Source: a virus
DNA: 64,000 nt
Strand: one strand, 5' to 3'
IMG/VR virus record: IMGVR_UViG_3300045988_076196
Location: 1 to 64,000 of that record
Part shown: positions 2,998-52,398 of the stretch, piece after piece
Layout: each line of letters begins with the position of its first letter
Position numbering within the stretch: the first letter of the stretch is position 1
Program-made: the position numbers and the translations under genes
Notes under the pieces: model-generated
What the model saw: only the letters and a program-made list of their open reading frames with translations
What the model was told of the DNA's origin: nothing
Databases searched by the model: none

Positions 2998-4667
2998 TTA
3001 AAATATTCACTCCAATCAATTTCATTTTCATTTGGCTTATCAATAATCTCATATCGCTCAATAATAGCTTGTGGCTTAATCTGTCCATTATATTCGTTCA
3101 ACCCAAGTGATACTACTACCTCTATAGATTTACCTTGAGCAAATTCAAATTGATTTGCTTCTTCATTATTAACAAAGAATTTTATGAACTCAATGCCATC
3201 CTGAACCAGCTTTACAGTAGTTGAGCGATTACGATAGATATAGATTTGAGGTGATGATAGGGTTAGATGGAATAGTGGCTTTGGTGTTCCTGTCCCCCAT
3301 AGGATATTATTTTCTACACACACATTTGCAAGATTGCGTGTGATATTATTAGGTTCGATCTGAGCCGCAACCTTAATATCTGGTTCTACGTCCAAATCAA
3401 GCCCATCTAAGAATCGTGCAAATCTCTTGAGATTGCTTTTCTTTACTGTGATACCAGCTGCGGCATCATGCCCTTGACATTTAGCCAATCCTGATTCATT
3501 GATAATCTCAAGCAAATCAATAGGACTACGCATTGAGCCAGACCATGTTGTGCTGTTTAGCTCTCTTAGCAGGAATGTTGGCTTATTATATTTACCACAG
3601 AATTTATTTGCTACAAGCCCTAAATAGGACTTATTCTCAGGTTCACCAAATCCGATAATGACTTTATGAGACGTATCAAGCCCATCTGACAGTTTATCTA
3701 CGACTTTCTTAACTTGATAATCCTGCTTAGACTTTACGGCTTTCATAGCTTTCACAGCCGCTTCTGGCTCAATCTTACCAATCAGCGCATCAAAGAATAG
3801 CCGCTTAGTAGATTGGTCGTCACTACGAGCAAGTGCATTAGCAAGAGGCGCAATACCAAATGCAACACCCTCTGGATTAACGCCACGATTGCAACAATGC
3901 TCTAGGCAGTATTTGATGAATGGATTAGTTGGATTGGTCAAGCCGTCATATATATATTTGCGGTTCTCAGGTGAACGCAAGCTGCAAATATCAGAGATTA
4001 GGCTAATGGCTACTAAATCTTTGAAAGATTGAGCAGAGCCAAGCGCACAAGCAAATTTTTCTACAACGCCCGTACCGCTAATATCTGTGTTGATATTTGG
4101 TGTATTATCGGCTCGATATGGGTTGATTACTGTAGCATATCTATTTTGCTTCTCAATAATATGATGGTCTAAGATGATAATATCAATTCCCATACACATC
4201 AGTTCTTCACATTGGTATGTATCATTTGACCCGGCATCTGGCACGATTAGTAAATCTATCTCATCAATAGCGATTTGACTTGCTAGGTCTGATAGCCCAT
4301 GCTCTTTACCAGCGTGAGAGTAGATATGAATATCTTCTAACCCGTTCTCAATACATAGCATATAGACGATAGCCGCAGAACAAGCACCGTCCATATCGGA
4401 ATCAATAACAATACCAACAGAGCCTTTAGTGTGATTGAATAAATTTACAGCCACATCCATATTCTTATACATATTAGGCGATTGATATTCAATGCTATCT
4501 GGATTTAGATATGCGTCAACATCAGCTATGCCACAAGCAGATAAATATTCCCTTAAAAATGTGGTTTCATTAAGGGAATCAAGTAGTGGATGAATCTTAA
4601 TCTGAATCACCATCCTTTTCTGGTAAGTTGATATATGCCCACTGGTCATTATATAGTGCGTCGCCAA
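2994..4667 (-). CDS. DHH/DHHA1 phosphoesterase, RecJ-like ssDNA exonuclease
   Basis: motifs DSDMDG, VPDAGS, ILDHH and QGHDAAAG; start uncertain (TTG 4667, ATG 4649 or ATG 4613). Confidence 0.85.
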   Translation of the reverse strand: MATHYIMTSGHISTYQKRMVIQIKIHPLLDSLNETTFLREYLSACGIADVDAYLNPDSIEYQSPNMYKNMDVAVNLFNHTKGSVGIVIDSDMDGACSAAIVYMLCIENGLEDIHIYSHAGKEHGLSDLASQIAIDEIDLLIVPDAGSNDTYQCEELMCMGIDIIILDHHIIEKQNRYATVINPYRADNTPNINTDISGTGVVEKFACALGSAQSFKDLVAISLISDICSLRSPENRKYIYDGLTNPTNPFIKYCLEHCCNRGVNPEGVAFGIAPLANALARSDDQSTKRLFFDALIGKIEPEAAVKAMKAVKSKQDYQVKKVVDKLSDGLDTSHKVIIGFGEPENKSYLGLVANKFCGKYNKPTFLLRELNSTTWSGSMRSPIDLLEIINESGLAKCQGHDAAAGITVKKSNLKRFARFLDGLDLDVEPDIKVAAQIEPNNITRNLANVCVENNILWGTGTPKPLFHLTLSSPQIYIYRNRSTTVKLVQDGIEFIKFFVNNEEANQFEFAQGKSIEVVVSLGLNEYNGQIKPQAIIERYEIIDKPNENEIDWSEYFN

Positions 4668-22973: not shown

Positions 22974-23813
22974 TTAAAAATTCACCACGCTCATAGCGTT
23001 GATTGCACGTTTCTCTGTGCGCTTGATATATCTGTTCGCCGTAATAGCAATTGAGCTATGGCCCATTGCCTTACTAATTACCTCAATCGGCACATCAGCC
23101 TCAGACATCATAGTAGCAAATGTACGGCGCATCGTATGATTGCTAATATGCAATTCTTCCCAATTTTCAATACCAGCTTTTCTGGCACATACTTTGAGCA
23201 TAGCACTAGTATTCTTGCCATCCATTTTATTGCCACGATTGCCAACAAACAGATATTCACAGCCATTTTTGCGCTCATTGGAAATATAATTATCAATCAG
23301 CTTAACCGTCTCATCAGACAAACCAATCAATCTATCCTTATCGCCTTTACCACGGATAACAAGTACATTACTGCTGCGAGATTCATACTGTTCAAGCGTG
23401 ATATTAAGCAATTCATAAATACGCAATCCAGTCTGTGCAAGCATCATAATAATTGCTTTATTGCGCAGATTGGTTGCAGCATTGACCATCGCTCTAACCT
23501 GTTCACCAGTCAGTGCGGATTGCTCACGATTCTTGATAGCAGGAGCTTCAAGAAATTCAGCAGGATTGCGCTGAATGAACTCGTTGCGATACAGGAATTT
23601 GAAATACTCACGAACCGCAGATGTTCTCTGAGCCACAGATGCAGAACTGAGATTGCTCATGCTGGACTGCCACAGCTCGAGGTCGATGGTCTTGATTTCA
23701 GCTTCAGGCTTATTGACATATGCCATACAATTCTCAATCGCCTTAGTATATTCCCTAATTGTGCCCTCGCTACGGTGCTTTGCCTTGAGGCTCATGATAA
23801 ACAGCTCGTTCAT
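22974..23813 (-). CDS. tyrosine recombinase (XerC/D / phage integrase family)
   Basis: GLRIYELLNI (Arg I), HTMRRTF (H-x-x-R) and GHSSIAITANRYI (catalytic Tyr). Confidence 0.85.
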   Translation of the reverse strand: MNELFIMSLKAKHRSEGTIREYTKAIENCMAYVNKPEAEIKTIDLELWQSSMSNLSSASVAQRTSAVREYFKFLYRNEFIQRNPAEFLEAPAIKNREQSALTGEQVRAMVNAATNLRNKAIIMMLAQTGLRIYELLNITLEQYESRSSNVLVIRGKGDKDRLIGLSDETVKLIDNYISNERKNGCEYLFVGNRGNKMDGKNTSAMLKVCARKAGIENWEELHISNHTMRRTFATMMSEADVPIEVISKAMGHSSIAITANRYIKRTEKRAINAMSVVNF

Positions 23814-23874: not shown

Positions 23875-24114
23875 TTATTTTTCTATTTTGGGAAATGCCT
23901 CACACACTCTTACACCATCGGCACATAGATACCACTTGCCGCTCTCTGTGTCTTGCTTGAAATCGTAATGAGTAGTAATTCTCATTGCTATATCAATGTC
24001 GTGCTGAGTAATTGTCCTTGGCTTAATTTCATAACTAAAGTAATTATGTAATTCAGCAATTAACTTGTCGCCATTATAAAGTTTGACATTGCCTGTTTCT
24101 GCTACATATTTCAT
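23875..24114 (-). CDS. hypothetical protein (79 aa)
   Basis: GAGGTG RBS. Confidence 0.6.
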   Translation of the reverse strand: MKYVAETGNVKLYNGDKLIAELHNYFSYEIKPRTITQHDIDIAMRITTHYDFKQDTESGKWYLCADGVRVCEAFPKIEK

Positions 24115-24132
24115 CTCATCACCTCTTTCTTT

Positions 24133-24170
24133 TAGAAAAATCCCTACAATCTTTCGACCATAGGGATTTT
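24133..24170 (-). terminator. rho-independent terminator after the HU gene
   Basis: minus strand AAATCCCTA...TAGGGATTT stem followed by TTTCT. Confidence 0.7.
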
Positions 24171-24184
24171 AACAGGAGGATTAT

Positions 24185-24460
24185 TTACTCATTGATTTCT
24201 GCCTTCAGTGTGCTTGTTGGCTTAAACGTCAGAGCATACTTGGCAGGAACTTCAATGGTTTCACCAGTCTGCGGATTACGAGCAGTACGAGCATCGCGTA
24301 GCTTAGTTGTGAACTTGCCAAAACCATGAATCACTACATCTTCATGCTGGACTAGGCTATGTCTAATATAGTCAATAAACGTGTCTACGATTTCAGTTGT
24401 GTCCTTGACTGTATTCTCTGTGCTATCTGCTACAAACTTGATTAGTTCCTTCTTTGTCAT
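24185..24460 (-). CDS. HU/IHF-family (DNABII) DNA-binding protein
   Basis: 91 aa; GFGKF...R.ARNPQTGE.I.VPA...F motif pattern. Confidence 0.9.
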   Translation of the reverse strand: MTKKELIKFVADSTENTVKDTTEIVDTFIDYIRHSLVQHEDVVIHGFGKFTTKLRDARTARNPQTGETIEVPAKYALTFKPTSTLKAEINE

Positions 24461-24607
24461 AAATTCCTTTTAATTTCCTTTCGATTTCTAATAAAATTTT
24501 ATTAAAACAAGTCGCAATGTTCATGCGCATATTGACTTGATATATGGGGTTATTGTTCCACTATCAACTACTTACAGGGTCCTCTTACCTAAGCCCTATA
24601 TTATTTT

Positions 24608-24668
24608 GCGCCAAATTGGTTTCGTCACGACGCTATGAGACTTTAACCATTTTACTCTCTCTTTGTCT
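24608..24668 (-). ncRNA. structured RNA motif, copy A of a tandem pair
   Basis: minus sense CAGACAAAGAG, stem GAGA/TCTC, AUAG, then hairpin GCGUCG/UGGCGC with loop UGACGAAACCAAUU. Confidence 0.55.
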
Positions 24669-24730
24669 GGCACTCGTCTACCAGCTCGACACGTCATTTA
24701 TCCTTGGACTTAATGCCGATTTAGACTACT

Positions 24731-24790
24731 GTGCGGAATTGGTTTCGTCACCGCACTATGAGCCTTTGACCAAGCCTGCTCTTTGTCTGT
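24731..24790 (-). ncRNA. structured RNA motif, copy B of a tandem pair
   Basis: same architecture with compensated stems GAGC/GCUC and GUGCGG/CCGCAC and an identical 14-nt loop. Confidence 0.55.
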
Positions 24791-24859
24791 TTCCCGAATT
24801 ATTGAACAGCAGTCAACGTTGTGTGTTACGCGCGATATTCACCAACGATTTTTAGAATT

Positions 24860-24932
24860 GCCACACTCCTTACAAACCACTGTTAGCGTGAAGTTTACAG
24901 TTGCGCAACCATCTTAAAATCAAGAGTGTGGC
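24860..24932 (-). ncRNA. helix-closed RNA domain in an ORF-free transcript
   Basis: 9-bp long-range helix GCCACACUC/GAGUGUGGC enclosing about 55 nt. Confidence 0.4.
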
Positions 24933-25119
24933 GGCGTTACCTCATAGCATCAGGTGGTCAACCATCAGCTATTCAGCAACTAGCATTTTAACCTATAAAC
25001 TAGACTATCCGCAGTGACCAAATCTTGAGGATTGTCTTACAAAGCTAGGATTTTCAGCTTTTCCTCCAGACGGCTATCAAGTGTGCTTACAACGCTAGTA
25101 GAGGCATGATAGACGTTTT

Positions 25120-25192
25120 TGACCGTGGTAGGATTCGAACCTACATCTCAACCGCTATGAACGGAGAGTATTACCAATTAGGAGACGCGGCC
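25120..25192 (-). tRNA. tRNA-like element, anticodon CAU, degenerate D and anticodon stems
   Basis: acceptor 6/7 pairs, perfect T arm GUAGG-UUCGAAU-CCUAC, U8/A14/G18G19 present, CAU at positions 34-36. D stem (UCCU/AUAC) does not pair, anticodon stem has only 3 bp, and no CCA is encoded. Confidence 0.45.
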
Positions 25193-25243
25193 ATATGGAA
25201 ATGGGCTTTAAGCATCAACCCATTAGAAGCATTGTAAAGTTAT

Positions 25244-25801
25244 TTAATCAATATATTCCCATCTACATCCATGATAACTTTTTTTGCCATTCTTTTGCAT
25301 AGTTACTAACGATATGAGATTTTGGACATGCCTTGCTCTGTTATCGTTATTTGGCGAAAAATATCTAGCAGCATCTGCAAGAGAGTCAAATTCATAGATT
25401 TTTTCGTTTGTTTTCTTGTCATATCCGACAACTCTCTTGGCTTTTGTATTATATTTCCCAGTGTTACAGTATCCTAAAACGTTTCTTGCGTGGTCTGTGT
25501 TTTCTTTAGGAGTGACCCATTCAAGATTTTCTGCTCGATTGTCTGTTTTTACCCCATTGATATGGTTTACTTGATTTTTGTTTGTCGGGTCTGGATTTGA
25601 AACAAAAGTTTTTGCTATTACACTGTGAACCGACATATATTTTGGAATGCCATTCATACATAGTCCGATTATGCAATACCCACGATGATTTATAGAAAAT
25701 TTTAATGGTTTACCAGTTTTACTATAAACAACTCCGTCCGTATCACATTCATAACATTCGTACCCTTTGATTGCTATTGGTTTTCTTTGATAACTCATCA
25801 T
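25244..25801 (-). CDS. HNH homing endonuclease (NUMOD4 + HNH_3 type)
   Basis: YECDTDGVVYS N-terminal module; VNHINGVKTDNRAENLEWVTPKEN. Confidence 0.8.
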   Translation of the reverse strand: MMSYQRKPIAIKGYECYECDTDGVVYSKTGKPLKFSINHRGYCIIGLCMNGIPKYMSVHSVIAKTFVSNPDPTNKNQVNHINGVKTDNRAENLEWVTPKENTDHARNVLGYCNTGKYNTKAKRVVGYDKKTNEKIYEFDSLADAARYFSPNNDNRARHVQNLISLVTMQKNGKKSYHGCRWEYID

Positions 25802-25895
25802 ACACTTCTCCTTAAATGTTATTATAAATATGGCTCAATGAAGGAGCATTGTTATCTCGCTAGTTAATTACTCTAACGCTACCCATATTTATTTA

Positions 25896-25980
25896 TGGTC
25901 TGCGTGGTCGGACTCCAACCGACAAGGCTTACGCCGCCGCATTTTGAGTGCGGTATGTTTAGCAATTTCATCACACGCAG
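25896..25980 (-). tRNA. tRNA-Leu(CAA), class II, with a swapped C19:G56 elbow pair
   Basis: perfect acceptor CUGCGUG/CACGCAG, A73, encoded CCA; anticodon arm CCGCA-CUCAAAA-UGCGG; long variable arm GGC-GUAA-GCC; T loop UUGGAGU. Confidence 0.75.
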
Positions 25981-26047
25981 ATATCTATTTCAAGCCGACT
26001 TCCTGCCTCATAGCTATTTCTAGCATCGGCTCGTGAATGATGTTTAC

Positions 26048-26221
26048 ATAATATCCTTATATCACCTTTGCCGTTATGTTTTTGCATGGATACTAACGTG
26101 ACACGATTGGGCGCGACCCCAATTCTCTAGTCTGTATCTGCCGCTTCTCAAACTCTGCGCAGACCCCAGTGCAGGCGTGATATAGATTTGACGGTTATCT
26201 TCAAATCCGGTCGGATATTAT
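26048..26221 (-). ncRNA. structured RNA domain, copy 1 (174 nt)
   Basis: P1 AUAAUAUCC/GGAUAUUAU, P2 GAUUUGA-AGAUAACCG-UCAAAUC, P3 UAUAUCAC/GUGAUAUA (minus sense). Confidence 0.6.
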
Positions 26222-26365
26222 ATTGTTTGTCAATCCCAATCCCTTTCATTATGCCGAACAGATTGACCGGTGCGCCCTACTTGGCACTACGGTCTTTCGC
26301 ACGACTGCGACCCGCTTTTATGCTTATCTCATTTGTCTCACGCACGTTCCCAATGATCTTAGTAA

Positions 26366-26495
26366 ATAATATCCTTATACCAACTTCAATCTGCTAGTAG
26401 CATCTCATTATCCGTTCTTCTCCAACTCCAGGTGGGCATATGAGTAAGCGTGGTATAGGTCTAACGGTGATCTTTAGACCGCGGTCGGATATTAT
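26366..26495 (-). ncRNA. structured RNA domain, copy 2 (130 nt)
   Basis: same P1; P2 GGUCUAA-AGAUCACCG-UUAGACC; P3 UAUACC/GGUAUA; compensatory changes relative to copy 1. Confidence 0.6.
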
Positions 26496-26604
26496 GATGG
26501 CTGTTCATCTCACTCCATTTACTACTGCTCCTGTAATCCCGGCTTTATTGCTTCGCGATTGCAACGTACCTGAGCTTCGTAGCACCACCATCTTTACATT
26601 CTCA

Positions 26605-26633
26605 ATTATACCATACTTGATTTTATTTGTCAA
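26605..26633 (-). promoter_or_regulatory. sigma70-type promoter driving the ncRNA/tRNA-Leu transcript
   Basis: TTGACA 26633..26628, 17 nt, TATAAT 26610..26605. Confidence 0.7.
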
Positions 26634-26770
26634 GCATTATTTTTACAATCAGCATCCCAACAGCAACGCCAGCCACAAATAAACCTAAACAAGCAAATAA
26701 AATAATCATACACTAATAATCAATAAATTCCTCTTAACTCTTTACCCTACAACTTATACTACTTAATTGA

Positions 26771-27010
26771 CTAATCCTGTTTTTCTTCATTATTAGTCAA
26801 TGATTTCTTTGCTAGACGCGCTGATTTGAGCCGTTCTGCCGCAGCTTGTTTCTGTTCGTCAGTCATTTCTCTTTTTCTGAACGGGTTGTTACCCATGCGG
26901 AACGGATATAGCTCACAGTCATGGATGACGCAATTTTTTACTTCATAAGCTGAGCCACAGCAACAATCCAAACAGTGCTGGCGGATGGCCTTTAGTGGAG
27001 ATTTTTCCAT
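26771..27010 (-). CDS. small zinc-finger protein (79 aa)
   Basis: AAGAGG RBS before ATG 27010; CLDCCCGS...C..HDC motif. Confidence 0.6.
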   Translation of the reverse strand: MEKSPLKAIRQHCLDCCCGSAYEVKNCVIHDCELYPFRMGNNPFRKREMTDEQKQAAAERLKSARLAKKSLTNNEEKQD

Positions 27011-27011
27011 A

Positions 27012-27350
27012 TTACTTAAACCTCTTGGCAATCGCCTTATCAACCATTTCTTCAAAATACTTGACCACTTGAGCATCTGCATTCTTCAGCTCTGAAAAAG
27101 ACGGCGCGAGTGACTTGATTTCTTGCTTCTTGAGAATTGCGTCGCTCACCTTCTGTACTACCTTATCAATAATCTCAGCTTTGTTTTCTTTAACAATCTG
27201 ACGTGCTTCTTCTTCTGTTAAGCTGTATTTGCCTTCTGTTAATAGATTATCTGTAATTGATTTCACTATTCCATCTCTTATATCTTGCTTAAAATCATAA
27301 GAGCCATACTCTTCGTACCAGCTGTCATCAATATCAAAATATAGTCGCAT
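27012..27350 (-). CDS. hypothetical protein (112 aa)
   Basis: GAGGTG RBS; immediately downstream of the tRNA at 27382..27474. Confidence 0.6.
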   Translation of the reverse strand: MRLYFDIDDSWYEEYGSYDFKQDIRDGIVKSITDNLLTEGKYSLTEEEARQIVKENKAEIIDKVVQKVSDAILKKQEIKSLAPSFSELKNADAQVVKYFEEMVDKAIAKRFK

Positions 27351-27381
27351 ATTATCACCTCATTAGATTTGGATTTTATCA

Positions 27382-27474
27382 TGGTACTGGCGCTCGGACT
27401 CGAACCGAGATTTTGCGGCAATCGACCACTAAACTGTGTATAGGACAGCTGGCTTACCATTAACCGACACCAGC
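27382..27474 (-). tRNA. class II tRNA with the non-canonical anticodon loop CCUAUAC
   Basis: acceptor GCUGGUG/CGCCAGU (2 G.U pairs), A73, encoded CCA; D arm GGUU-AAUGGUA-AGCC; T arm CUCGG-UUCGAGU-CCGAG; about 23-nt variable arm; C at position 33. Confidence 0.6.
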
Positions 27475-27573
27475 ATATTTGAGCCTTTTACCGTCATGCT
27501 CAGGACTATATTTTCAGGAGGTTCACAATGAAGAACTGTAATTGAGATTGCCCAATCTCTCAACCACATCTGT

Positions 27574-52248: not shown

Positions 52249-52398
52249 TATTTGCCTATGAAGCGGTAGCTATGTTGGTGTGTTGCCGTGGAGGCACTAT
52301 TAGGGTTGTGTGGAATCCAAGTTCCAACTGAGGCTTAATCAAAAAAAGTTGAAAATAAAAACACTCAAAAAATATAAAACAAGGAAAGGAGGTTGAAG

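What the first reader, a model, noticed from the sequence alone, without database searches (positions are those of the whole stretch)
24480..25119. Tandem pseudoknot-like RNA motif and a 640-nt ORF-free structured transcript between a tRNA-like gene and the HU gene
Two copies 123 nt apart (24608..24668 and 24731..24790) share a common architecture. In minus-strand sense this is CAGACAAAGAG, stem 1, AUAG, then stem 2 with an identical 14-nt loop UGACGAAACCAAUU.

Both stems are compensated between the copies. Stem 1 is GAGA/UCUC versus GAGC/GCUC. Stem 2 is GCGUCG/UGGCGC versus GUGCGG/CCGCAC. The G.U pairs exist only in the minus-strand RNA, which fixes the functional strand.

The stem-1 loops (..UGGUU.. 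/ ..UUGGU..) are complementary to AACCA/ACCAA in the conserved loop, so a pseudoknot is possible. The same ACCAAUU is also complementary to the AAUUGGU D-loop of the adjacent tRNA-like element.

Upstream, a 9-bp long-range helix (24860..24868 / 24924..24932) closes another domain. The motifs sit in the leader of the HU gene. Tandem riboswitch-like control and a stand-alone ncRNA are both conceivable.
Basis: seen in the sequence. Interest (0 to 1): 0.75.

Follow-up and report, generated by a model that had tools for sequence, protein, structure and literature searches.

The report
New modular phage noncoding RNA
The two repeats are real tandem copies of a roughly 120-base, four-hairpin RNA module that forms part of a large, previously uncatalogued noncoding RNA locus in the tRNA region of human-gut phages, and a TnpB transposon also uses one of its loops as a landing site.

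Summary
The two 60-nt motifs are the 3' halves of two tandem ~120-nt modules on the minus strand: A at 24853..24727 and B at 24724..24604. Each module has four hairpins (H0, Ha, H1, H2) plus a loop1-loop2 contact.

- **Homologs.** I recovered more than 60 from human-gut phage contigs.
- **Covariation.** In 26 distinct variants, 91.6% of pair cells are paired, against 73% in shuffles and 33-42% with slid partners. Twenty of 26 pairs show compensatory changes.
- **Strand.** G.U pairs occur almost only on the tRNA/HU-sense strand.
- **Pseudoknot.** Its 3-bp core covaries: GGC/GCC, GAC/GUC, GUG/CAC, UGGU/ACCA.
- **Known families.** No Rfam 15 family matches, GOLLD and ROOL included.

The 640-nt region is a mosaic: a 5' domain, an optional hairpin domain, one or two modules, a small unit or an aberrant tRNA, and a terminal hairpin. 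A compact homolog (L112) places all of this, plus the counterpart of window 26600..25981, in one ~620-nt ORF-free unit behind a consensus promoter.

Riboswitch-like control of HU is not supported. A stand-alone, co-transcribed structured RNA of the GOLLD/ROOL kind, though unrelated to them, is the best reading. Its function is unknown. In related phages a TnpB element sits exactly inside loop 2.

The parts
24727..24853 (-). Module A, ~127 nt. Layout: AAAUC lead; H0 24847..24817 (loop carries CGCGCG); Ha 24809..24787; single-stranded ACAAAGAG 24786..24779 (its last three nucleotides, GAG 24781..24779, open H1); H1 24781..24760 (GAGC/GCUC, loop with UUGGU); AUA; H2 24756..24731 (GUGCGG/CCGCAC, loop UGACGAAACCAAUU 24750..24737).
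   Evidence: CM hit of 122.6 bits, E 4e-29. Coordinates. Covariation. About 98% identical in GC-rich and AT-rich phages whose flanks are unrelated.
24604..24724 (-). Module B, ~121 nt, with the same architecture. H0 24718..24692; Ha 24684..24667; ACAAAGAG 24666..24659; H1 24661..24637 (GAGA/UCUC, loop with UGGUU); H2 24633..24608 (GCGUCG/UGGCGC with two G.U pairs; loop 24627..24614).
   Evidence: CM hit of 94.5 bits, E 8e-22. Homologous B copies have H2 as GCGUCG/CGACGC (L004) and GCGCCG/CGGCGC (L058). B is absent or truncated in L008, L061, L093 and L098.
24935..25119 (-). 5' domain of the finding region ('dom5', ~185 nt). It has conserved single-stranded motifs (GCAUUGYAAG, AAAAUCC, UUUGUAAG, UUGGUCAC, GUAAUGCNAGUUGC) and compensated helices, including a 3' helix GUUGCU-GA-AUAGC / GCUAU-GA-GGUAAC at 24980..24968 / 24948..24936.
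   Evidence: nhmmer homologs. Diverse versions in L093, L098, L116, L125 and others. RNAalifold gives 29 pairs, 8 of them with compensatory changes. Helices with unrelated sequence but kept pairing are seen by eye.
24852..24934 (-). It contains the palindrome GUUGCGCAAC at 24909..24900.
   Evidence: Present in the window, L004, L008, L061, L098, L114, L120, L132 and L134. Cleanly absent in L085, L093, L058, L087 and L095. Folded. L133 has the compensated outer helix CCACGCUCA/UGAGCGUGG and the palindrome GACUGCGCAGUC.
24546..24596 (-). 51-nt unit (GGGCUUAGG...AAUAACCCC) that follows the last module. The same slot holds an aberrant 91-nt tRNA in L058, L061, L087 and L095. The unit is duplicated in L008.
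   Evidence: Alignment, nhmmer, Rfam tRNA hit of 37.8 bits at L058 4286-4376, fold.
24489..24539 (-). Terminal hairpin CAAGUCAAU[AUGCGCAUGAAC]AUUGCGACUUG at 24539..24508, followed by UUUU and an A/U palindrome at 24504..24489. This looks like a terminator. A weak promoter-like site lies at 24523..24496.
   Evidence: (z = -1.9). Conserved in all AT-type homologs. Its role as a terminator is inferred; the tool's own terminator scan did not list it.
24731..24750 (-). Vacant target site of an IS605-family TnpB element: TAM-like UGAC followed by GAAACCAAUUCCGCAC.
   Evidence: In L033, L041, L043 and L073 a 1306-nt element lies exactly between ...GUGCGGUGAC and GAAACCAAUUCCGC.... The element carries a 367-aa protein with OrfB_IS605, Cas12f1-like TNB and HTH_OrfB_IS605 domains.
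25120..25192 (-). Degenerate tRNA-Met(CAU)-like gene immediately upstream of dom5.
   Evidence: Rfam tRNA 23.6 bits, below the gathering score. Not called by ARAGORN in the window. The L008 homolog is called tRNA-Met.
25981..26633 (-). Upstream part of the same locus: a consensus promoter (TTGACA-17-TATAAT with TG, 26633..26605) and a ~620-nt ORF-poor region. In the compact homolog L112 the counterpart of this region is joined directly to dom5.
   Evidence: Promoter, sequence, nhmmer, L112. No Rfam hit.
25244..25980 (-). Insertions in the linker: tRNA-Leu(CAA) at 25980..25896 and an HNH_3+NUMOD1 homing-endonuclease gene at 25801..25244. The endonuclease gene is present in only some relatives.
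   Evidence: The HNH gene is present in L085 and L095 and absent in L008, L061, L098, L058 and L087.
24185..24460 (-). HU (Bac_DNA_binding) gene downstream. It is a conserved neighbour of the RNA island in both phage groups.
   Evidence: Pfam E 1.7e-30. Synteny in L041 and L125. Not seen near L113.

Best explanation
The finding is the 3' part of a large, modular, structured noncoding RNA locus in the tRNA island of human-gut phages, probably phages of Bacillota.

**Shown**
- The locus is built from autonomous folding units. These are a ~185-nt 5' domain, an optional ~80-nt hairpin domain, one or two copies of a ~120-nt four-hairpin module, and a small 3' unit that is interchangeable with an aberrant tRNA.
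- Each module folds as H0-Ha-H1-H2 on the strand that also encodes the tRNAs and HU.
- Loops 1 and 2 are tied together by a short covarying helix.
- No known RNA family matches.

**Inferred**
- The units are transcribed together with the tRNAs from a strong promoter and act as stable RNA, not as a leader of HU.
- By analogy with GOLLD and ROOL, they serve as a self-associating scaffold or RNP during infection. This rests on position, size and modularity, on tRNAs embedded in linkers, and on self-complementary sequences at hairpin tips.
- The co-located phage HU, or tRNA-handling factors, are candidate partners.

**Separately shown**
- Loop 2 of module A is the insertion and guide-target site of an IS605-type TnpB element.
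- Together with a free-standing HNH endonuclease, this explains much of the mosaicism of the locus. It may also explain why module A is ~98% identical in otherwise dissimilar phages.
For: **Module structure**
- In 26 distinct variants, 91.6% of pair cells are paired. Shuffles give 73.0 +/- 0.9% and slid partners give 33-42%.
- 20 of 26 pairs have changes on both sides.
- Paired fractions per helix: H0 98.4%, Ha 94.6%, H1 98.1%, H2 98.7% (earlier versions).

**Pseudoknot**
- The 3-bp core is 97.4% paired, against 82.5 +/- 1.8% in shuffles and 19-50% when slid.
- L130 and L131 carry a clean GGC/GCC to GAC/GUC switch relative to close relatives.

**Strand**
- Stems contain 29 G.U cells against 5 A.C cells. 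G.U appears in 14 of 20 stem pair columns and A.C in 2.

**Other domains**
- dom5 has compensated helices.
- The optional hairpin domain is compensated in L133.

**Non-coding**
- No ORF is conserved on either strand.

**Not a known family**
- Rfam 15 gives no hit at gathering score, or at E<=10 in the 3.4-kb window stretch, or in the compact homolog.

**One unit**
- L112 has a consensus promoter followed by ~620 nt with no tRNA and no ORF. This stretch contains the counterparts of window 26600..~26230, dom5, one module, the 51-nt unit and the terminal hairpin.

**Context and distribution**
- The locus always sits among tRNA or tRNA-like genes.
- It occurs in IMG/VR contigs of 24-120 kb and in human-gut assemblies.
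- No bacterial genome copy was found among 185,579 species representatives.

**TnpB**
-.

**Hairpin-tip self-complementarity**
- H0 tips carry CGCGCG, UGCGCA, ACUAGU, UCCGGA or CCCGGG in different lineages: 7 of 12 loops against 2.4 expected, P about 0.004.
Against: - There are no expression or processing data.
- Single-sequence folding energies are no better than shuffles. In module A, the minimum-energy fold replaces H1 with an alternative pairing.
- The module alignment was made by hand to fit the structure, which favours it. Effective diversity is perhaps 8-10 lineages, mostly from one IMG/VR metagenome (3300045988) plus ENA gut assemblies.
- Module A is nearly invariant, so its own conservation could reflect recent recombination or homing rather than selection.
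- A TnpB insertion that splits loop 2 is tolerated, and module copy number varies, so a single module is dispensable.
- The order of units differs in the GC-rich phages, where module A lies upstream of the counterpart of the 5' domain. This argues for an operon of separate RNAs rather than one obligate large RNA.
- The palindromic hairpin tips are mostly coaxial with their stems. They can be read simply as long hairpins with self-complementary tetraloops. Region-wide palindromes are not enriched.
- Self-association and HU binding are analogies, not results.
Confidence: 0.62

Rival explanations
1. A cis-regulatory leader of the HU gene, acting as tandem riboswitch-like aptamers. Each module would bind a ligand or factor, and the terminal hairpin would act as the expression platform controlling read-through into HU.
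For: - In the window and its closest relatives the modules lie upstream of HU on the same strand.
- A hairpin plus T-run sits just before the HU ribosome-binding site.
- Tandem arrangement of aptamers is known from other riboswitches (general knowledge).
Against: - The distance and the intervening content vary widely. A tRNA lies between module and HU in L058, L061, L087 and L095. In the GC-rich phages 1-3 kb with several tRNAs lie between them. There is no HU near L113.
- The number of modules varies, and modules are split by TnpB without loss of the phage.
- The conserved unit in L112 starts at its own promoter about 620 nt upstream and has far more conserved structure than an aptamer plus platform would need.
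- No alternative pairing between a module and the terminal hairpin was seen.
Confidence: 0.06
2. A DNA-level element rather than an RNA. The inverted repeats would be recombination, homing or protein-binding sites that mark cassette boundaries in a hyper-recombinogenic tRNA island. Their conservation would then reflect selfish elements (TnpB, HNH).
For: - The locus is a mosaic of interchangeable cassettes.
- TnpB inserts in loop 2 and at four other sites of the island and is associated with deletions.
- An HNH homing endonuclease is polymorphic nearby.
- Module A is ~98% identical in phages whose flanks and HU proteins are very different.
- Several hairpins are near-perfect palindromes with self-complementary centres.
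Against: - Compensatory changes keep pairing in four hairpins and in a loop-loop helix, which has no meaning in duplex DNA.
- Mismatches are strongly biased towards G.U on the transcribed strand: 29 against 5 cells, and 14 against 2 columns.
- Conserved single-stranded motifs (ACAAAGAG, CAUAG, UGA...AUU) are strand-specific.
- The element is co-oriented with the tRNAs and lies behind a consensus promoter.
- Single-stranded DNA of the same strand cannot be excluded on sequence grounds alone.
Confidence: 0.1
3. A tRNA-related accessory RNA. The module would mimic or bind the tRNA elbow, acting either as a decoy for host tRNA-targeting defences or as a processing or chaperone element for the aberrant tRNA-like genes that follow it.
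For: - A module is followed within 10-40 nt by a tRNA or tRNA-like gene in L094, L058, L087, L095, L061 and the GC-rich phages.
- H1 resembles a D-arm: a 4-bp stem with loop ..UUGGU.. or ..UCGGCA... The downstream L058 tRNA has the D-loop AGUCGGCA.
- Loop 2 is complementary to such D-loops, including the neighbour's AAUUGGU (I6).
- The island holds several irregular tRNAs.
Against: - Neither ARAGORN nor the Rfam tRNA model recognises the modules.
- There is no acceptor stem or CCA end.
- Loop 2 covaries with loop 1 of its own module. Covariation with neighbouring tRNA D-loops was not assessed.
- In the window and in L112 the unit after the module is not a tRNA.
- The D-arm resemblance comes from memory and inspection, not from a test.
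Confidence: 0.12
4. Chance similarity, or a recent neutral duplication with no function.
For: Folding energies are not better than shuffles. Copies come and go between close relatives.
Against: More than 60 homologous loci exist, with many diverged variants that keep all four helices through compensatory change.
Confidence: 0.02

Closest known systems
GOLLD and ROOL RNAs (large ornate RNAs of phages and prophages)
   Same: - They are encoded by phages, 'often near tRNA islands'.
- GOLLD env-38 lies downstream of a tRNA-Met, and tRNAs sometimes sit in the GOLLD linker.
- They are hundreds of nucleotides long, with many hairpins and pseudoknots, no known protein partner and no known function.
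- They assemble into homo-oligomers (PMC12286853, read).
- The RNA here also follows a tRNA-Met-like gene, has tRNAs and a homing-endonuclease gene inserted in a linker, is ~620 nt in its compact form, and has self-complementary hairpin tips.
   Different: - There is no match to either Rfam model, even at E<=10 on short inputs.
- Five conserved strings from this RNA were absent from the sequences in that paper's supplement.
- This locus is built from repeated, copy-number-variable ~120-nt modules and swappable cassettes.
- Oligomerisation is only inferred here.
Bacteriophage T4 stable RNAs C and D (species 1 and 2) in the tRNA cluster
   Same: These are small stable RNAs of unknown function, co-transcribed and processed with phage tRNAs, next to free-standing homing endonucleases (own knowledge, not checked here).
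   Different: No sequence relation was tested. The T4 RNAs are single ~120-140-nt species, not a modular array with a large 5' domain.
phi29 pRNA and the HIV-1 dimerisation initiation site
   Same: - Both use loop-loop base pairing to build assemblies.
- pRNA pairs AACC with GGUU between molecules. The HIV-1 site uses a 6-nt GC-rich palindrome at a hairpin tip that differs between lineages while staying self-complementary (own knowledge).
- Here loop 2 AACCA(A) pairs with loop 1 (U)UGGUU, and H0 tips carry CGCGCG, UGCGCA, ACUAGU, UCCGGA or CCCGGG.
   Different: - No pRNA match was reported in the Rfam 15 scans.
- The host phage is a 60-120-kb phage with its own portal and no link to packaging.
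- Whether the loop pairings here are within or between molecules is unknown.
Tandem riboswitches and type III antitoxin RNA repeats (ToxI-like pseudoknot repeats)
   Same: They consist of tandem structured units, with a pseudoknot in each unit.
   Different: - There is no fixed downstream gene or expression platform (see the riboswitch rival).
- There is no adjacent toxin endoribonuclease gene.
- The repeats are 120 nt long, diverged from each other and separated by other elements. They are not short, identical, head-to-tail units.
IS200/IS605 TnpB guide-RNA homing
   Same: - The element has an imperfect palindrome at each end, and its right end terminates in ...GUCAA.
- It inserts without duplication immediately 3' of a short motif (UGAC).
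- The sequence after its right end (GAAACCAAUUCCGC...) is what its guide RNA would carry. The vacant site in the window is therefore a predicted TnpB target (mechanism from PMC10055086 as listed).
   Different: - This concerns what happens to the RNA gene, not what the RNA is.
- No TnpA was seen.
- Cleavage and homing were not tested.

Membership tests
GOLLD RNA (Rfam) | Match to the family covariance model at or above its gathering score | tested here: not met
   No GOLLD hit at gathering score on the whole window. None at E<=10 on window 24100..27500, on related loci or on the compact homolog L112 60..780.
GOLLD RNA (Rfam) | Phage or prophage location next to tRNA genes, with tRNAs sometimes inside a linker | tested here: met
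   tRNA-Leu and a tRNA-Met-like gene lie between the 5' region and dom5 in the window. No tRNA interrupts the unit in L112. This is a resemblance in habit only.
ROOL RNA (Rfam) | Match to the family covariance model | tested here: not met
   Same searches as for GOLLD.
ROOL/GOLLD kind (self-assembling RNA cages) | Homo-oligomer formation by the RNA alone | not testable with these tools
   Only indirect hints are available: lineage-specific self-complementary hairpin tips.
Riboswitch or cis-regulatory leader of HU | Constant position upstream of the regulated gene, with an expression platform that competes with the aptamer | tested here: not met
   Spacing and intervening genes vary widely. No competing pairing was found.
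Riboswitch or cis-regulatory leader of HU | Ligand binding | not testable with these tools
   No experimental data are available.
tRNA / tRNA-like structure | Cloverleaf with acceptor stem, recognised by ARAGORN or the Rfam tRNA model | tested here: not met
   The modules are not called. Only the flanking element at 25192..25120 scores as a weak tRNA.
Type III toxin-antitoxin antitoxin RNA | Short identical tandem repeats followed by a toxin endoribonuclease gene | tested here: not met
   The repeats are 120 nt long and only ~60-80% alike. The downstream genes are HU and a tyrosine recombinase.
phi29-type pRNA | Match to the Rfam pRNA model | tested here: not met
   No pRNA match was reported in the Rfam 15 scans. 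That the release contains a pRNA model is from memory.
New family proposed here (four-hairpin module) | H0-Ha-(A)CAAAGAG-H1-AUA-H2, with loop 2 reading UGA...(C/U)C(A/U)AUU and a loop1-loop2 core helix | tested here: met
   Both window copies fit.
IS200/IS605 TnpB target site | Short motif followed by the sequence that flanks the element's right end in occupied alleles | tested here: met
   Window 24750..24731 reads UGAC+GAAACCAAUUCCGCAC. The L041 flank after the right end is GAAACCAATTCCGCACAATA. Module B shares only UGAC plus 10 nt.

The most novel reading that the evidence does not exclude
This is a new class of large, modular, phage-encoded RNA, unrelated in sequence to GOLLD or ROOL. Its ~120-nt modules would be tertiary-folded bricks held by a loop1-loop2 kissing contact. 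They would join into higher-order assemblies through lineage-specific self-complementary hairpin tips, possibly together with the co-located phage HU protein. The assembly would act on tRNAs or the translation apparatus during infection. In addition, its loop 2 would have been adopted as a safe-harbour and homing site by an RNA-guided TnpB nuclease that shuttles the module between unrelated gut phages.
Probability: 0.25. Interest if true: 0.85.

Novelty: new variant of a known kind. Interest (0 to 1): 0.68.

Why it matters
Large structured RNAs of phages (GOLLD, ROOL) have recently been shown to form RNA-only cages, yet their function is unknown and very few classes exist.

- **A third class.** An independent class from abundant human-gut phages, with a compact 620-nt form and clear building blocks, would give a new and more tractable system for asking what such RNAs do.
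- **Built-in genetics.** The module offers natural variants with one or two copies, swapped loops, compensatory pseudoknot mutants and TnpB-disrupted alleles.
- **Selfish elements.** The locus is also a clean natural example of an RNA-guided TnpB element and a homing endonuclease remodelling a noncoding-RNA and tRNA island in phages.

Tried and rejected
**Searches that found nothing**
- Rfam at the gathering score and at lenient E-values, on the window, the related loci and the compact homolog.
- blastn of the region against 50,697 phage records.
- One scan of 185,579 bacterial and archaeal species genomes with the motif pattern. All nine hits look like chance, so this is not a host-derived attachment site.
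- Exact-loop pattern scans. L002, L006, L007 and L009-L031 are chance matches without the stems.

**Readings considered and rejected**
- *Hammerhead, twister, pistol or hatchet ribozyme cores, T-box, tmRNA, Y-RNA-like RNA, group I intron or IStron, CRISPR or tracr-like RNA.* I saw no defining motif on inspecting the sequence, and there was no Rfam hit.
- *A mini-ORF in loop 1.* UUG/AUG-GUN-AAA-GNC-UCA-UAG is present in A and B but not kept in other variants.
- *A protein gene on the opposite strand.* The 103-aa frame is not conserved.
- *General enrichment of palindromes in the region.* Not significant.
- *Thermodynamic stability as evidence.* Not significant.

**Literature**
- Full-text searches for a described RNA of this kind found nothing specific.
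- The supplements of PMC8040213 (first 200 of 408 files) and PMC12286853 do not contain the conserved strings.
- PMC10690425 has no supplement held.
Full report
**1. The observation**

Read on the minus strand, the window runs as follows:
- an HNH_3+NUMOD1 endonuclease gene (25801..25244);
- a tRNA-Met(CAU)-like element (25192..25120; Rfam tRNA 23.6 bits, below threshold);
- about 660 nt without a conserved ORF;
- an HU gene (24460..24185).

The long-range helix at 24932..24924 / 24868..24860 is also there.

**2. The repeat unit is larger than the motif**

Alignment with relatives shows that each 60-nt motif is the 3' half of a module of about 120 nt. The layout is:
- an AAAUC lead;
- hairpin H0;
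- a 6-8-nt joiner;
- hairpin Ha;
- (A)CAAAGAG, whose last three nucleotides open H1;
- hairpin H1 (4 bp);
- AUA;
- hairpin H2 (6 bp), with loop UGA...CC(A/U)AUU.

A covariance model built from 14 variants finds exactly two copies in the 64-kb window:
- A at 24853..24727, 122.6 bits;
- B at 24724..24604, 94.5 bits.

**3. Relatives**

- Pattern scans of IMG/VR recovered more than 60 loci with the module. These are contigs of 24-120 kb, mostly from metagenome 3300045988.
- A scan of metagenome assemblies added loci that include records labelled human gut.
- One scan of 185,579 bacterial and archaeal species genomes gave only chance-like hits.
- The window carries phage replication genes and a portal.
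- Its DNA polymerase is closest, at about 50% amino-acid identity, to phages of Paenibacillus, Staphylococcus, Bacillus and Enterococcus. A Bacillota host is therefore likely. This is an inference.

**4. Evidence for RNA structure**

*Counts on a hand alignment.*
- It holds 26 distinct module variants, and MAFFT kept it column for column.
- 91.6% of pair cells form standard pairs. Shuffles give 73.0 +/- 0.9%, and sliding the 3' partner by 1-3 columns gives 33-42%.
- 20 of 26 pairs show changes on both sides.
- Paired fractions per helix: H0 98.4%, Ha 94.6%, H1 98.1%, H2 98.7%.

*Examples of compensated stems.*
- H1: GAGC/GCUC, GAGA/UCUC, GAGU/ACUC, GAAC/GUUC, GGGG/CCCC.
- H2: GUGCGG/CCGCAC, GCGUCG/CGACGC, GCGCCG/CGGCGC, GUCAGG/CCUGAC.

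- Its 3-bp core is 97.4% paired, against 82.5 +/- 1.8% in shuffles and 19-50% when slid.
- The core reads UGGU/ACCA in A and B, GGC/GCC in most other variants, GAC/GUC in L130 and L131, GUG/CAC in L132, GGCGU/ACGCC in L121 and GGCUA/UAGCC in L133.
- The L130 case is a clean double change relative to close relatives.
- Pairs flanking the core are kept only in part of the family.

*Strand and coding.*
- Mismatches in stems are strongly biased towards G.U on this strand: 29 cells against 5 A.C cells, and 14 against 2 of 20 columns. This fixes the strand and argues against a duplex-DNA feature.
- No ORF is conserved on either strand.

*Caveats.*
- The alignment was fitted by hand.
- The number of independent lineages is modest.
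- Folding energies of single sequences are no better than shuffles.

**5. The whole region is a mosaic of structured units**

Among AT-rich relatives the region between the tRNA and HU consists of five parts:
- a ~185-nt 5' domain (25119..24935) with conserved single-stranded motifs and helices that keep pairing with unrelated sequence in L093, L098, L116 and L125;
- an optional ~80-nt hairpin domain (24934..24852), cleanly absent in five relatives and compensated in L133;
- one or two modules;
- a 51-nt unit (24596..24546), whose slot holds an aberrant 91-nt tRNA in four relatives;
- a terminal hairpin with a T-run (24539..24489).

Homolog L112 is compact. A consensus promoter is followed by about 620 nt with no tRNA and no ORF. 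That stretch contains the counterpart of part of window 26600..25981, joined directly to the 5' domain, then one module, the 51-nt unit and the terminal hairpin.

The window has the same consensus promoter at 26633..26605. Window 26633..24489 is therefore best read as one expanded locus. Its linker has received a tRNA-Leu, a homing-endonuclease gene (present in only some relatives) and a tRNA-Met-like gene.

In the GC-rich phages the units occur in a different order among more tRNAs. The units may thus be separate RNAs of one operon rather than one obligate molecule.

**6. Comparison with known families**

- No Rfam 15 family matches the region, the related loci or the compact homolog, even at E<=10.
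- The closest known things in habit are GOLLD and ROOL. These are large ornate phage RNAs near tRNA islands, sometimes with tRNAs in a linker, of unknown function, and they form homo-oligomeric cages (PMC12286853).
- The present RNA shares the habit but fails the only membership test available, the covariance models.

**7. Hints about mechanism (inferred)**

*Hairpin tips.*
- The tip of H0 carries a 6-nt self-complementary sequence that differs between lineages: CGCGCG, UGCGCA, ACUAGU, UCCGGA or CCCGGG. That is 7 of 12 loops against 2.4 expected, P about 0.004.
- The optional domain carries GUUGCGCAAC, or GACUGCGCAGUC in L133.
- The terminal hairpin loop carries AUGCGCAU.
- Such tips could mediate kissing-loop self-association, as in other assembling RNAs. 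They can equally be read as long hairpins with self-complementary tetraloops.
- Palindromes are not enriched over the region as a whole.

*Neighbours and resemblances.*
- HU follows the island in both phage groups but not near the most divergent member, L113. HU as a partner is speculation.
- H1 resembles a tRNA D-arm, and modules often precede tRNA-like genes. A tRNA-related role is therefore a live alternative.

**8. Why riboswitch-like control of HU is unlikely**

- The distance to HU and the genes in between vary widely.
- Module number varies.
- A hairpin with a T-run and a promoter-like site intervenes before HU.
- Phages tolerate a 1.3-kb insertion inside loop 2.

**9. The TnpB connection**

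- In L033, L041, L043 and L073 a 1306-nt element lies exactly between ...GUGCGGUGAC and GAAACCAAUUCCGC..., that is, inside loop 2 of module A.
- The element encodes a 367-aa TnpB with OrfB_IS605, Cas12f1-like TNB and HTH domains.
- It has imperfect palindromes at both ends, and its right end terminates in GUCAA.
- The flank after the right end is what the element's guide RNA would carry. Window 24750..24731 is therefore a predicted vacant target. Module B shares only UGAC plus 10 nt.
- The same element sits at four other sites of the island and is associated with deletions.
- Module A is about 98% identical between AT-rich and GC-rich phages, although their flanks are unalignable and their HU proteins differ markedly on inspection of the two sequences (about 45% identical by my estimate).
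- Recombination linked to TnpB or homing-endonuclease activity is a plausible cause. This was not tested.

**10. Verdict**

It is a new family of structured phage RNA modules within a large modular noncoding locus, of the same general kind as GOLLD and ROOL but not a member of either. The structural claims are well supported by comparison. The function, and any self-assembly, remain inference.

Noticed in passing
window 26633..25981 (minus strand): A perfect sigma-70-type promoter (TTGACA-17-TGnTATAAT) is followed by ~620 nt of ORF-poor sequence. That sequence is conserved in relatives and partly in GC-rich phages (L041 5032-5172). It contains an internal ~45-nt repeat at about 26490-26445 and 26217-26170. 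No Rfam hit. In L112 its counterpart is fused to the finding's 5' domain.
   Followed up: partly
L041 2314..3619; also L033, L043, L073; other copies in L035, L040, L045, L046, L047, L057, L096: A 1306-nt IS605-type element carrying only TnpB (367 aa) is inserted in loop 2 of module A and at four other sites of the tRNA and ncRNA island. In L047 and L057 the left end is at module A but the right-end flank comes from further downstream, which implies deletions between copies.
   Followed up: partly
window 25801..25244 (minus strand): A free-standing HNH_3+NUMOD1 homing-endonuclease gene lies between tRNA-Leu and the tRNA-Met-like gene. It is present in L085 and L095 but absent at the same place in L008, L061, L098, L058 and L087.
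   Followed up: partly
window 52253..52369 (plus strand): Match to the Rfam drum RNA family (49.7 bits, gathering score 43), between a 560-aa ORF and the portal gene.
   Followed up: no
window 27474..27382 and 25192..25120; L058 4286..4376; L001 5441..5359; L041 about 4085..4245: The island holds several irregular tRNAs:
- a 93-nt tRNA-Ile(UAU) with a 20-nt insert in the variable region;
- a tRNA-Met-like gene below threshold;
- a 91-nt tRNA with an oversized anticodon/variable region;
- a tRNA-Sec-like element (42.7 bits, below threshold);
- a tRNA-like gene with an ~80-nt insert.
   Followed up: no
L008 2527..2631; L111 12713..12875; L114 4871..5036: Module B shows recurrent internal deletions that join its joiner (GUCGAG) to the 3' strand of H2 (CGRCGCAAAA). 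In L111 and L114 a different small hairpin unit is inserted after the remnant.
   Followed up: no
window 24544..24855 (plus strand): A 103-aa antisense open frame spans both modules and has an internal repeat that mirrors the tandem modules. The frame is broken or shifted in L098, L112, L115, L120 and others, so it is probably not coding.
   Followed up: yes
window 23813..22974 (minus strand): A 279-aa tyrosine recombinase (Phage_integrase plus SAM-like N-terminal domain) lies about 370 nt downstream of HU, separated from it by a 79-aa ORF (24114..23875). No attachment site was looked for.
   Followed up: no
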